A stretch of DNA of 64,000 nucleotides from the human T2T-CHM13v2.0 reference genome, Homo sapiens: NCBI RefSeq assembly GCF_009914755.1, contig NC_060940.1. The stretch is one strand, 5' to 3'. Each line of letters starts with the position of its first letter. Positions within the stretch are counted from its first letter, which is position 1. Both the position numbers and the translations under genes were made by a program. The notes under the pieces are model-generated. The model was given only the letters and a program-made list of their open reading frames with translations, made no database searches and was not told where the DNA came from. Shown piece by piece: positions 23,366-29,300 of this stretch.

Positions 23366-26300
23366 GTGAGTAGACGCTGGACCCGCGGGGTTTCTTCCTT
23401 TTTACTGGGCTGTGTCACGCGGCATGAAATTACACAGCTCAGGCCTGTAATCCCAGCACTTTAGGGGGCCGAGGTGGGCAGATCACTTGAGTCCAGGAGT
23501 TGAAGACTAGCCAGGGCATCATGGCGAAACCCCATCTCTACAAAAAATTCCAAAAAAGATTAGTCGGGCCTGGTGGTGCGTACCTGTTATCCCAGTTACT
23601 GGAGAGGCTGAGGTGGGAGGATCGCTTGGGCCGAGGAGCTGGACGTTGCAGTGAGCTGAGATGGCCCCGCTGCACTCTTGTCTCTAACAAACAAAATGGA
23701 CCAAAACAAAGTGAAATGTCATTTGATTTGTGTCATCTGGTTTGATGACTTTTTTTTTTTTTTTTTTAGACAGAGTCTCACTCTGTCGCCCAGGCTGGAG
23801 TGCAGTGGCAAGATCTCGGCTCACTGCAACCTCCGCTTCCGGGGTTCAAGCAATTGTCCTGCCTCAGCCTCCTGAGTAGCTCAGATTACAACGCCTGGCT
23901 AATTTTTGTATTTTTAGCAGAGACGGGGTTTCACCATGTTCGCCAGGATAGTCTCCATCTCTTGACCTCGTGATCCGCCTGCCTCGGCCTCCCAGTGCCG
24001 GGATTACAGGCGTGAGCCACCGCGCCTGGCCAAAATATATAACCTTAAGTGTAAGTTTACTAACTTTGGAAAGTACTTACACCAGCATAAACCGACCCCC
24101 TTTCAAGATCTACATTATTTTATTTATTTATTTATTTATTTGAGACAGTTTCTCCCTTGTTGCCCAGGCTGGAGTGCAATGGGGCAATATCAGCTCACCG
24201 CAACCTCTGCTTCCCAGGTTTGAGCGATTCTCCTGCCTCAGCCTCCCGGGTGGCTGGGATTACAGACATGTGCCACCACTCCCAGCTAATTTTGTATTTT
24301 TAGTAGAGATAGGGTTTCTCCATGTTGGTCAGGCTGGTTTTGAACTCCCGACCTCAGGTGATCCGCCCGCCTCGGCCTCCCAAAGTGTTGGGATTACAGG
24401 CGTGAACCACCGTGCCCAGCCAAGATCTACACTATTATGTCACCCCAGAAAGTGAACTCTCACTCTTCCCAGCCAGTCTCTTTCTTATCATAGGTTAGCT
24501 TGCTTATTCTGGAATTTCGCGTATACAGATGCGTGCCATGCCATAGGTACTCTTTTGTGTCTGCTTTATTCTGCTCAACACCATGTTTCTGAAATCATTA
24601 CCATTGTTGTATGGTTCTCTAACTCCATCATTTCCATTTCAGACTCAGCATATGCTGAGTTCAACCTGTTGAAGGGCTATCTCTGTTTAATTCACCATCT
24701 TGAAAGAAACATTTAAAATTGAGATGTTTTCAAGAATATATAGTTAAATCCTGAGGAATCGATGTAGAAATGTTATCACAAGCTGTCTGAACTTACTCAG
24801 GGGAAGTCTTCGTCTTCACTCACATAAGAGTCTACTGGAATTAATATCAACAATCTTAGAGAAATCCCACACTATTCATGCCATTTTCATGATCTCCACC
24901 TTGGTAATTTTTTTTTTTTTTGAGACAGAGTCTCGCTCTGTCACCCAGGCTGAAGTGCAGTGGTGCGATCTCGGCTCACTGCAACCTCTGCCTCCCGGGT
25001 TCAAGTGATTCTTCTGCCTCAGCCTCCCAAGTAGCTGGAACTGTAGGCACGTGCCACCATGCCCTGCTAATTTTTTGTAATTTTAGTAGAGATGGGTTTC
25101 ACCGTGTTAGCTAGGATGGTCTCAATCTCCTGATCTCGTGGTCCACCCACCTCGGCTTCCCAAAGTGCTGAGATTGCAGGCGTGAGCCACCACACCCGGC
25201 CCACCTTGTTAATTTTTGAGCACTAAAATTTGATACTTATTTGTGAATGAAGTAATCTCTTCATTGTATTTTTTTTTTTTACTTATGCTGAGCTTCAAAT
25301 GACAAAGATTCATATAATCCAAGAGAGAAGTATTATTTAGAGGGATTCTTTTACCATGTGATATATAATAAATGCATCCAATGTTATACATCAATTTAAA
25401 AAACAAGTAAATAACTTTAAAGAAAAGATAACTACTGGCCAGGTGCAGTGGCTCACACCTGTATTCCCAGCACTTTGGGAGGCCGAGGCAGGTGGATCAA
25501 GAGGTCACGAGTTGGAGACCAGCCTGGCCAAGATGGTGAAACCCTGTTTCTACTCAAAATACAAAAATTAGCCGAGTGCGGTGGCAGGCGCCTGTAATCC
25601 CAGTTACTCAGTAGCTGAGGCAGGAGAATCGCTTGAACCCGGGAGGCGGAGGTTGCAGTGAGCTGAGATCATGCCACTGCAATCTAGCCTGGGTGACAGA
25701 GCAAGACTTTGTCTCCAAACAAAAAGAAAAGATAATTACTTTATACTTAGCTTGTCTTAGCCATGAGTGACGGGCTGCATGTGGCCCAGGACAGTTTTGA
25801 ATGCAGTTCAACACAAATTTGTAAACTTTCTTAAAACATTAGGAGATTTTGGCCAGGTACAGTGGCTCATGCCTGTAATCCCAGCACTTTGGGAGGCTGA
25901 GGCGGGCAGATTACCTGAGGTCAGGAGTTCGAGACCACCCTGGCCAACATGGCAAAACCCCATCTCCACAAAAAATACAAAAATTTGCTGAGTGCATTGT
26001 CAGGCACCTGTACTCCCAGCTACTCAGGAGGCTGAGGCAGGAGAATCACTTGAACCTGAGAGGCAGAGGTTGCAGTGAGCCGAGAGCACGCCACTGCACT
26101 CCAGCCTGGGTGACAGAGTGAGACCCCATCTCAAAAACAAAACACCAAACAAAAACAAAAACAAAAAAAAATGGCTGGGCACGGTGGCTCACACCTGTAA
26201 TCCCAGCACTTTGGGAGGCCGAGGCAGGCAGATCGCCTGCCAGGAGTTCAAGGCCAGACTGGCCAACATGGTGAAACCTCATCTCTACTAAAAATACAAA

Positions 26301-29300
26301 AATGAGTCGGGCATGGTGGCAGAGACCTGTAATCTCAGCTACTCGGGAGGCTGAGGGAGGAGAATGGCTTGAGCCCAGGAGCTGGAGGTTGCAGTGAGCC
26401 GAGATTGCACCACTGCACTCCAGCCTGGGCGACTGAGTGGAGCGGAACTCTGTCTCCAAAAAAAAAAAAAAAAAGAGTTTTTTTTTAGATCATCAGCTAT
26501 TGTTAGTGTTAGTGTATGTTATGTGTGGCTCAAGACAACTTTGTTTCTTTTAATATAGGCAGGGAAGTGAAAAGATTGGATATCCCTGCTTTATACCAAG
26601 AAAGACAACACCCCACATTTGCAATGCCTAAAAACACTACCAGCCATCTGAAAAACATGAGACTTCTAACTTCTGTTCTTTTTTGTAGCAGTGGAATCCC
26701 ACGGTGATATCTGAGGGATGTGGTTACCTTTTGGAGGAGGTTGACGGTTTCTAAGGATGATTCTTTCTGAGTGAAATATTGTCGGTGTCATTGACCTTTT
26801 CATTATTTCAACTATTATTATTCCAGGTTATCAATAGTCTGGCTGTCTATCGTCATCGTGAGACTGACTTTGGTGTAGGAGTTCGAGACCACCCTGGCCA
26901 ACATGGCAAAACCCCATCTCCACAAAAATTGGATAATTTGATAATTATCATTATTGGGTTTCTGAGACGTTACACATTTAACATTCTCTTCTGCACAAGT
27001 TGCCTTTGTGTGAGTATACTAACTTTCTGTAGAGGTATACTTGTAATCACAAATAAGAATAAATTATATAAAACAATTCACGTTTCTGGACTTCATTATG
27101 AATATGTGGTTTTACCCAAAAAATCAGGGAAATGATTTATTAGCATAAGAATTATGAAAATGTCTGCCATTTACATTATGAAAATTAAATAGGTCGGTGT
27201 TTGTTTAATAGAATGTCAACAGAGCTTTTGGTCAAAAATAAGTTTTTTTAGCCTTTGTGCTATTTATCACAAATGGAGTATGAGGTTTCGTCACTTAAAT
27301 AGGAAATTCTTTCTAAACTCTTCTGCTTTATAGTTCTATCGTATGGGTGGAAGGAAAGCTTCCAATCTCCTCTCTGAAGATTCACTGCAGAAATGAGCTG
27401 ACAACAGACAGCTTAACAGGAAAAGAAAAACATAGAACAGGCATAAACATGGGAACCAGCTGAAAAATGAGACTGCTAGAAGGGCCGGATGGTTGATGCT
27501 TAAAGAGCACCCTCTTCTGAGGGGAGAGGGAGATAGATGGAGATGTAGGCCATTTAGAGGGGCAGCAAATGATTTTTAGGGGAAATGAAAGAGGCCAAGG
27601 AACAAACAATTGGCCTGAGACAAAGTTCCTCTGAGGTCATAGGGACGAGGTGACAAACTGCCGGAAGGTGAAGGGCAGAACTGCACTGCGTCTCATGATG
27701 CAGAGAAAGCCCCAGAGAATCTCTTAGAACTGCCCTCCAAGAGAATCAATGAAAAGTGTGTCTGGGCAGGGTAATTTTGAATGACATCATTCAAAGTGCA
27801 TGTTCCCACTTGCAACTGGAGAGAGATCAGTATGTCAAAAGTCTGAACTTGGTAAGAATTTGGCTGCTAAGTTGTGCCATAATTTGTCTTTTGAGCCTTT
27901 TTTCCTTTGGGTAAGTTGAGCTCTACATTTTGTCTTGCCATTCATGACAGTAAAAATGTGGTTGTCTGGGGGCTGAACCTCCTGAACAATGATCCAAGAC
28001 AAAAGTACTAATACCACAATGCTTTTTTATATTCAAGGGAAGAGGAAGTATGTTTCAGTTTTACCACCTAGATAATTACACATCATTTGGCACTGCCTTT
28101 CAAGATATGTAGAAAACAGAAAATATATGAGTTATGAAGATATCTAGGCACACTTAACATTCTCTATGCCACTTAGTCCTGAACAGAGAATTTTCGGTAT
28201 AAATTGGAGGAAGCTTTTTTTTTTTTTTTTTCTTTTCTCACCCCCGAGACGAGTCTCCCTCTGTTGCCCAGGCTGGAGTATAATGGTGTGATCTCGGCTC
28301 ACTGCAACCTCCACCTCCTGGCTTCAAGCGATTCCCCTGCCTCAGCCTCTCAAGTAGCTGGGATTACAGGTGCCCACCACCATGCCCAGCAAATTTTTGT
28401 ATTTTTAGTAGAGTCGGGGTTTTACCATGTTGGCCAGGCTAGTCTCAAAACCCGACCTCAAATGATCCACCCGCCTCAGCCTCCCAAAGTGCTGGGATTA
28501 CAAGCGTGAGCCACCACGTGAGCCAGGGGAAGTTTTTAAATTTACCACTTTTTAACAGTTCCATTTAGGAAAGTTCAGTTGAGCTGCTGGACTTGGACAA
28601 CTTCGCACCTCTCATCTTTGTCCTTGTCATCTAGTCATCTATACCATTACCTCCTAAGCAGGGACATCATGGGTGCCATGAAGCATTCATGCGTGATGGC
28701 ATTTCTTTGCTTGTCATTTCTTCATGTGTTTGACATTTCTCCTAGCTCCAAACTGGGCCAGCTACCTTTCCTGTGAAATCTAGTAGTAGCTGTGGGATTG
28801 ACGTGGTTGCTCTTTTCATCTTTTTAGATTACCCATTGCTTCTCTCGAAATCCTAGTACATGATTTTTTTTTTTATCCTATGTGCAGAAATCAGGAAAAA
28901 ACAAATTCTACAAAGAATTTGAAAGATATTATTTCAGGCCAGGTGTGGTGGCTCATGCCTGTAATCCCAGCACTTTGGGAGGCTGAGGCAGGTGGATGAC
29001 TTGAGGTCAGGAGTTCAAGACCAGATGGGCCAACATGGTGAAACCCCATCTCTACTAAAAAGACAAAAATTAGCCAGGCATGGTAGCAGGCACCTGTAAT
29101 CCCAGCTACTTGGGAGGCCGAGGCACAAGAATCGCTTGAATCTGGGAGGTGGAGGTTGCCGTGAGCCAAGGTAGTGCCACTGCACTTCAGCATGGTTGAG
29201 AGTGACACTCCATCTCAAGAAAAAAGTCATTTCAATGACTACCTCAGGACATTCATAGGTATCTGACCCACATCTGAGATGGGATTTGCATTGCATTTTC

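What the first reader, a model, noticed from the sequence alone, without database searches (positions are those of the whole stretch)
25923..26928. Coding insert in NPIP exon 2 is an exact 52-nt copy of the neighbouring intronic Alu
Seen: 26877-26928 (aggagttcgagaccaccctggccaacatggcaaaaccccatctccacaaaaa) is 52/52 identical to 25923-25974, 954 bp upstream. The match includes non-consensus Alu bases (gaccaccctgg, ggcaaaacc, ctccacaaaaa). It is followed by a micro-duplication (gataattt gataatt). The exon is 18 codons longer than the recalled NPIPA exon and stays in frame ([17 protein letters not shown]). Inference: this is a locally templated insertion (template switch or polymerase-theta-type repair), not retrotransposition or classic exonisation, and it created new protein sequence.
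Basis: partly seen in the sequence, partly recalled or inferred. Interest (0 to 1): 0.7.

Follow-up and report, generated by a model that had tools for sequence, protein, structure and literature searches.

The report
Intron Alu copied into neighbouring exon
A 52-base piece of an Alu repeat inside a coding exon of the human gene NPIPB9 is identical to an Alu 954 bases upstream in the same gene and was likely pasted in by a DNA-repair copying slip in an African-ape ancestor, adding 18 amino acids; the insert itself is already published, but its source appears not to be.

Summary
Confirmed. 26877-26928 equals 25923-25974 (52/52). All 23 exact copies in the genome lie in NPIP genes (15 introns, 8 exons). 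Unrelated Alus give 0 exact, 2 one-mismatch and 44 two-mismatch hits; a control Alu 52-mer has 374 exact hits. The intronic Alu is in all 28 NPIP copies, the insert in 8, which form one clade, so the direction is intron to exon. Against the nearest insert-free paralogue and ape proteins, 51 Alu bases replaced about 5 exon bases, and an 8-nt repeat 10 nt downstream brings the net gain to 54 nt, in frame. No target-site duplication, poly(A) tail or new splice site. Chimpanzee and bonobo proteins carry it, gorilla probably; orangutan, gibbons and monkeys do not. Best reading: one repair or replication event with two template switches, in cis. Not shown: cis versus paralogue donor, DNA versus pre-mRNA template, the polymerase; 954 bp and 51 nt exceed typical polymerase-theta insertions. 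The Alu-derived insert and a junction peptide are published (PMC6924539); I found no paper naming the donor. A neat new case of a known process.

The parts
25851..26171 (+). Donor Alu, full length with A-rich tail, in the intron before NPIPB9 exon 2 (ends approximate)
   Evidence: present in 28 of 28 NPIP copies at 97.6-100% identity
25923..25974 (+). Donor segment: left-arm positions ~73-124, ending in the middle A-run
25977..25987 (+). Second copy of the 7-nt A-rich unit of the Alu linker followed by TTTG; possible 2-nt microhomology for the return switch (speculative)
26827..27009 (+). NPIPB9 coding exon 2, 183 nt (129 nt in insert-free paralogues); splice sites unchanged
   Evidence: annotation given with the finding
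26875..26877 (+). Left-junction codon: Val here, Ala in the 28.63-Mb copy, Gly in apes and in insert-free paralogues; the T at 26876 is inferred to be a later human change; the A at 26877 is shared by target and donor
26878..26928 (+). 51-nt Alu-derived insert, 17 codons [17 protein letters not shown], replacing about 5 exon bases
26929..26938 (+). 10 retained exon bases, now read in a shifted frame (LDN)
26939..26946 (+). 8-nt AT-rich repeat that restores the frame; 7/8 direct copy of the bases before it, 8/8 reverse complement of the bases at the site (12-bp palindrome 26939-26950)

Best explanation
The 51 Alu bases in NPIPB9 exon 2 match the Alu in the preceding intron exactly and were likely copied from it in cis during one repair or stalled-replication event in an African-ape germ line. 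Inferred steps: a break or stalled strand in exon 2 of an ancestral NPIPB copy; the 3' end primed on the intronic Alu 954 bp upstream with little homology and copied 51 nt; it returned to the exon 5 nt further on; a second short switch repeated 8 nt. Net +54 nt kept the frame, so the allele survived and was spread by segmental duplication to the 8 copies seen today. Shown: donor family, direction, junction anatomy, single clade, frame, presence in Pan. Inferred: cis, DNA template, one step, age before the gorilla split. The new 18 residues are polar and sit just before the hydrophobic segment of exon 2, so they likely act as a spacer; no function is shown.
For: 23 of 23 exact hits in NPIP copies; outside NPIP 0 exact, 2 at one and 44 at two mismatches among about a million Alus (figure from PMC9132208); control 52-mer 374 exact hits; next-best Alu in the window has 4 mismatches. 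Donor in 28 of 28 copies, insert in 8 of 28. The 8 carriers are one clade on 3,049 flanking intron columns, UFBoot 100; 96 and 97 for the two sides alone. No target-site duplication of 3 nt or more; without the 8-nt piece the exon is out of frame with a stop inside it, and every carrier seen has both pieces. Same orientation as donor. Perfect identity needs no later conversion: chance of no substitution in 52 nt is 0.39-0.59 at 1.8-1.0% divergence. Multi-template germline insertions are documented (PMC8421209 passages).
Against: The same 52-mer is in the introns of 7 insert-free paralogues, so cis is parsimony, not proof. Perfect junction homology is 1 nt at the left and 0 at the right; longer matches need a bulge or slip, whereas 80% of MMBIR-type junctions had 2-12 nt. 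Tract length and distance are outside the polymerase-theta definition. The two gorilla carrier proteins have Gln where human and Pan have His, at the very site where the two unlinked one-mismatch Alus differ from the insert. No ape DNA was available to check this.
Confidence: 0.68

Rival explanations
1. The template was the gene's own unspliced transcript (RNA- or cDNA-templated repair), which holds donor and exon in sense orientation and is expressed in testis.
For: Insert is sense to the transcript; carriers are testis-expressed (bioRxiv 2025.02.04.636496 passages); RNA-derived patches are proposed for class 2 TSIPs (PMC5110952 passages).
Against: The intron is 9.6 kb, yet the donor lies within 1 kb of the site, as a DNA-local process predicts; the second, 8-nt piece is locally templated. 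Orientation alone is a coin toss.
Confidence: 0.13
2. The donor was the same intronic Alu in another NPIP paralogue (ectopic strand invasion between near-identical duplicons, then a template switch).
For: 52-mer exact in 7 insert-free paralogues; interlocus conversion is common in NPIP and a tract is visible just 5' of the donor in the 29.68-Mb copy.
Against: Needs the same offset switch plus a second locus; 8 insert-free copies (including chr18) carry a variant in the 52-mer that the insert lacks, which excludes that clade as donor.
Confidence: 0.1
3. Two separate mutations: the Alu piece (+46 nt net) broke the frame, and a later 8-nt duplication rescued it.
For: The 8-nt repeat can be a plain tandem duplication plus one substitution; a redundant paralogue could tolerate a null interval.
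Against: The pieces are 10 nt apart; no intermediate among 8 human loci or 33 named carrier proteins.
Confidence: 0.06
4. An unlinked Alu fragment was captured and later made identical to its neighbour by Alu-Alu gene conversion or a point change.
For: Gorilla Gln fits the base carried by two unlinked one-mismatch Alus; Alu gene conversion exists (PMC8230782, listing only).
Against: Gorilla keeps the other unusual residues of the insert, so the donor was already within one mismatch of the neighbour; only 2 unlinked Alus are. One point change in gorilla explains it more cheaply.
Confidence: 0.03

Closest known systems
[quoted passage not shown] 2019, PMC6924539)
   Same: The same insert: 'frame preserving', validated peptide ETDFGVGVR across the left junction (passages and Table S1 rows).
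   Different: Treated as an AluJb insertion of 72 nt; no donor, junction anatomy or mechanism in the passages and supplement rows read.
Non-classical Alu insertions (NCAI; features as given in PMC5402677 section 7)
   Same: Fragment truncated at both ends, no poly(A), no target-site duplication, no endonuclease site, small target deletion.
   Different: Here the donor is traced to one resident intronic Alu beside the site, and the product is coding.
Polymerase-theta templated insertions, TINS (PMC7165422)
   Same: The 8-nt AT-rich direct/inverted repeat at a microhomology-poor site; iterative switching.
   Different: TINS are defined as templated within 50 bp, with first tracts rarely over 10 bp; the Alu piece is 51 nt from 954 bp away.
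MMBIR/FoSTeS templated insertions (PMC8421209)
   Same: Several templates in one germline event, return to the original locus.
   Different: Junction homology here is weak; that study searched inverted copies within 100 bp.
Class 2 templated sequence insertion polymorphisms (PMC5110952)
   Same: Patch with microdeletion, no duplication, no poly(A).
   Different: Their donors are distant; this one is in the same gene and is shared across species.

Membership tests
Target-primed Alu retrotransposition | Target-site duplication | tested here: not met
   none of 3 nt or more; bases were lost instead
Target-primed Alu retrotransposition | 3' poly(A) tail | tested here: not met
   ends in 5 A of the internal linker
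Target-primed Alu retrotransposition | L1 endonuclease site 5'-TTTT/A-3' at the break | tested here: not met
   read by eye from the insert-free site in L032
Classic Alu exonisation | Alu supplies a splice site (definition recalled) | tested here: not met
   both splice junctions align with those of the 129-nt exons
Non-classical Alu insertion | Truncated fragment without poly(A), duplication or endonuclease site | tested here: met
   definition
Non-classical Alu insertion | Deletion at the insertion site | tested here: met
   5 nt if the ape Gly codon is taken as ancestral, 7 nt on the human sequence alone
Non-classical Alu insertion | Origin from Alu RNA or cDNA | not testable with these tools
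   donor is a resident intronic Alu; template type unknown
Polymerase-theta TINS | 5 nt or more templated within 50 bp: 8-nt piece | tested here: met
   definition
Polymerase-theta TINS | Template within 50 bp: 51-nt Alu piece | tested here: not met
   954 bp
Polymerase-theta TINS | Dependence on POLQ | not testable with these tools
   ancient fixed event
MMBIR/FoSTeS templated insertion | More than one template, return to the locus | tested here: met
   if both pieces arose together
MMBIR/FoSTeS templated insertion | 2-12 nt microhomology at switches | tested here: inconclusive
   1 nt left, 0 right; 3 and 2 nt only with a slip; no chance model run
Class 2 TSIP | Donor in a distant region | tested here: not met

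The most novel reading that the evidence does not exclude
Resident intronic Alus act as local repair templates (from DNA or from the gene's own nascent RNA) that write new in-frame coding sequence, so that a real share of 'Alu in coding exon' and non-classical Alu insertions are neighbour copies with no retrotransposition at all; here such an event founded the exon-2 form of the testis-expressed, positively selected NPIPB6-10/B15 clade and was kept unchanged while the rest of the exon raced ahead.
Probability: 0.2. Interest if true: 0.65.

Novelty: new member of a known kind. Interest (0 to 1): 0.38.

Why it matters
It pins a coding innovation in one of the fastest-evolving ape gene families to a named donor and a readable repair scar, and shows that an 'Alu insertion' in a protein need not be a jump or an exonisation. 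The insert is also a clean marker: it splits NPIP copies into 8 carriers and 20 non-carriers and is older than the human-chimpanzee split. It gives a simple genome-wide test (does an Alu fragment match its neighbour better than a million others?). Interest is held down because the insert is published, templated insertion is a known process, and no function of the 18 residues is shown.

Tried and rejected
Chance Alu match: rejected by counts. Exon to intron direction: rejected, the donor is a full Alu in all 28 copies. Human-specific origin: rejected, Pan proteins carry it. [quoted passage not shown] Hairpin trigger at the empty site: no support, z = -0.69. Purifying selection on the insert: not shown; variable positions 1 of 17 inside against 11 of 44 outside, p = 0.15 (p = 0.025 without gorilla; 10 distinct exon sequences; P0024, P0035 and four unnamed rows left out), and zero change is also expected under neutrality. 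Search for long gorilla carriers (689-2000 aa): 4 candidates, none passed, weak evidence. Pfam: the NPIP model does not cover the insert (best stretch starts at exon residue 39). No structure was predicted. EASTR paper: its one NPIP mention concerns another exon. The tree rests on 3.6-kb loci only; longer introns were not obtained. One remembered paper on templated micro-insertions at deletion breakpoints was not held and is not used.

Full report
Observation. Window 26877-26928 equals 25923-25974, 52 of 52, not extendable, 954 bp apart, same strand. The annotated exon 26827-27009 is 183 nt and is in frame in the spliced NPIPB9 coding sequence. The donor stretch is the left-arm part of a full-length Alu at about 25851-26171.

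Is it more than chance? An exact 52-nt match between Alus is not rare in itself: the window has another at 28946/48634, and that 52-mer has 374 exact hits across the genome. The insert 52-mer has 23, all on chromosome 16 in NPIP copies: 15 introns and 8 exons. At one mismatch 13 more appear, 11 NPIP introns and 2 unlinked Alus. At two mismatches 46 more appear, 2 NPIP introns and 44 others, assigned by coordinates. Of 80 windows hits with up to 16 mismatches, the best after the two exact ones has 4. The tool warns that counts of repeats can be lower bounds; the control shows that it does list common Alu words. The neighbouring Alu's own matching segment is likewise NPIP-specific (23 exact hits), so such segments work as fingerprints. 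With about a million Alus (PMC9132208), a random distant donor would be within one mismatch of the neighbour about 2 times in a million.

Anatomy. One search returned 28 NPIP copies; 8 have the 183-nt exon and 20 a 129-nt exon. By protein identity the 28.63-Mb copy is B6 and the three 80-Mb copies are B15; B8 and B9 follow the annotation; other names (B7, B10, B14) are recalled. The closest empty exon is L032 (C16:75.8 Mb), reading DFGGSPWIIIII. In ape carriers the left-junction residue is Gly, as in the empty exon, while humans have Val or Ala; the T at 26876 is therefore inferred to be a later change. On that reading 51 Alu bases replaced 5 exon bases, with one shared A at the left junction; 10 exon bases were kept; then 8 bases were added; net +54. 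Without the 8 bases the exon is out of frame and has a stop. The 8-mer is a 7/8 direct copy of the bases before it and an 8/8 reverse complement of the palindromic bases at the site; the data cannot choose between these. There is no target-site duplication, no poly(A) tail, no endonuclease site, and the splice sites are the old ones.

Direction, number of events, age. The intronic Alu is in 28 of 28 copies, so the flow was intron to exon. On 3,049 gap-free intron columns the 8 carriers are one clade (UFBoot 100); they differ from the window by 0.13-0.56% and from non-carriers by 1.4-2.3% (two partial duplicates at 15.1 Mb, 4.9% and 7.4%, misalign and are set aside); the sister position of L032 has only 67. 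Among protein cluster representatives with a detectable exon 2 (isoform-redundant, not gene counts; species labels), the insert is in 14 of 27 human, 9 of 25 chimpanzee, 8 of 18 bonobo, 2 of 5 gorilla, 0 of 4 orangutan, 0 of 7 gibbon/siamang and 0 of 5 Old World monkey entries. So it predates the human-Pan split. The gorilla evidence is two UniRef entries with gorilla-type downstream sequence and ancestral flanking residues; the gorilla RefSeq-named B8-like entries lack the insert and look like the pre-insertion state of the same clade; a search for longer gorilla carriers found none. I take a pre-gorilla date as probable, not settled. The gorilla entries have Gln for His at the same site where the two unlinked one-mismatch Alus differ; one point change in gorilla is the cheaper reading, but it keeps a small rival alive.

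Mechanism. Best reading (0.68): a single germline event in which a broken or stalled strand in exon 2 switched to the Alu 954 bp upstream, copied 51 nt, came back, and switched once more over 8 nt. The short piece meets the published definition of polymerase-theta templated insertions (5 nt or more, within 50 bp, AT-rich); the long piece does not (PMC7165422 passages). Multi-template germline insertions of the MMBIR type are known, but most have 2-12 nt of homology (PMC8421209 passages); here it is 1 nt and 0 nt, or 3 and 2 nt if slips are allowed, which I did not test against chance. The enzyme is thus open. Cis cannot be proven because 7 insert-free paralogues hold the same 52-mer in their introns. 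A pre-mRNA template fits the sense orientation and testis expression and cannot be excluded. Perfect identity after several million years needs no later homogenisation (probability 0.39-0.59 of no change).

Protein. The 17 Alu-derived residues plus LDN are polar and lie directly before the hydrophobic segment that begins at LIIIII, outside the Pfam NPIP model. A peptide across the left junction is validated in PeptideAtlas (PMC6924539 Table S1); it is shared by most carriers, so it does not identify B9. Exon 2 shows the most extreme positive selection in the family (PMC7419210 supplement). The insert varies less than the rest of the exon (1 of 17 against 11 of 44 positions, p = 0.15), which does not show constraint.

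What is known. [quoted passage not shown] Bekpen 2017 mentions a 'long exon2' construct (passages). Cantsilieris 2020 (passages, section 10, supplement hits), Dishuck 2025 (passages; no occurrence of 'Alu', 'insertion' or 'templated') and Damert 2022 (passages, section 7) do not mention a donor in what I read. Searches found no paper naming it. Figures, bioRxiv supplements and subscription papers were not seen and could hold it. By features the event is a non-classical Alu insertion (PMC5402677 section 7), with the twist that its source is a resident neighbour.

Verdict. Real, well supported, and correctly read in outline by the first stage. The insert is known, the process class is known, the donor and junction history appear unreported. 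New member of a known kind; interest 0.38.

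Noticed in passing
window ~1900-2920 and ~44340-45540: Long exact direct matches 42.4-42.6 kb apart; they fit the two SVA elements that flank the NPIPB9 duplicon in Damert 2022 (PMC9132208 section 7).
   Followed up: partly
L049 (C16:29.68 Mb), window-equivalent 25500-25760: This insert-free paralogue shares six carrier-type bases just 5' of the donor Alu and then switches to another clade's type inside the Alu: likely an interlocus conversion tract.
   Followed up: partly
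L032 (C16:75.8 Mb), exon 2 region: This copy (B14 by recall) lacks an insert that Pan has and differs from carriers by 1.8% in introns. For this segment that sits badly with a human-specific, ~2.6 Mya clade of B6-10, B14, B15 as worded in Dishuck 2025 (passage); carriers alone (0.5%) fit that date.
   Followed up: partly
window 26875-26877: The junction codon has three residues: Gly (apes), Val (7 human loci), Ala (28.63-Mb copy; other B6 entries have Val), two replacement changes at one base.
   Followed up: partly
P0036, P0048, P0072 (chimpanzee); P0024 (bonobo): Three 'low quality' chimpanzee models have carrier-type flanks but no insert, probably annotation artefacts, possibly deletions. 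One bonobo protein has one Gly fewer at the left junction, the product a 3-nt microhomology would give, though more likely a later slip.
   Followed up: no
window 26878-26888: The insert carries an intact RNA polymerase III B-box-like motif (motif recalled) with a CpG that is kept in all 8 exons, where decay would give a stop, but is lost in 2 of 28 introns.
   Followed up: no
window 51779-51910; 51257 and 51864: A 66-nt tandem duplication inside an Alu, and a 75-nt exact match between two Alus 607 bp apart; 51082-51720 is an Alu nested in another Alu.
   Followed up: no
L052 (C16:20.54 Mb), L053 (C11:3.39 Mb), two chr10 hits: Diverged (74-75%) relatives of exon 2 and its flanks; the two examined lack the donor Alu.
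   Followed up: no
P0034 (unnamed record): Joins the 5' part of a different Alu to the exon insert, probably an assembly chimera through the Alu piece.
   Followed up: no
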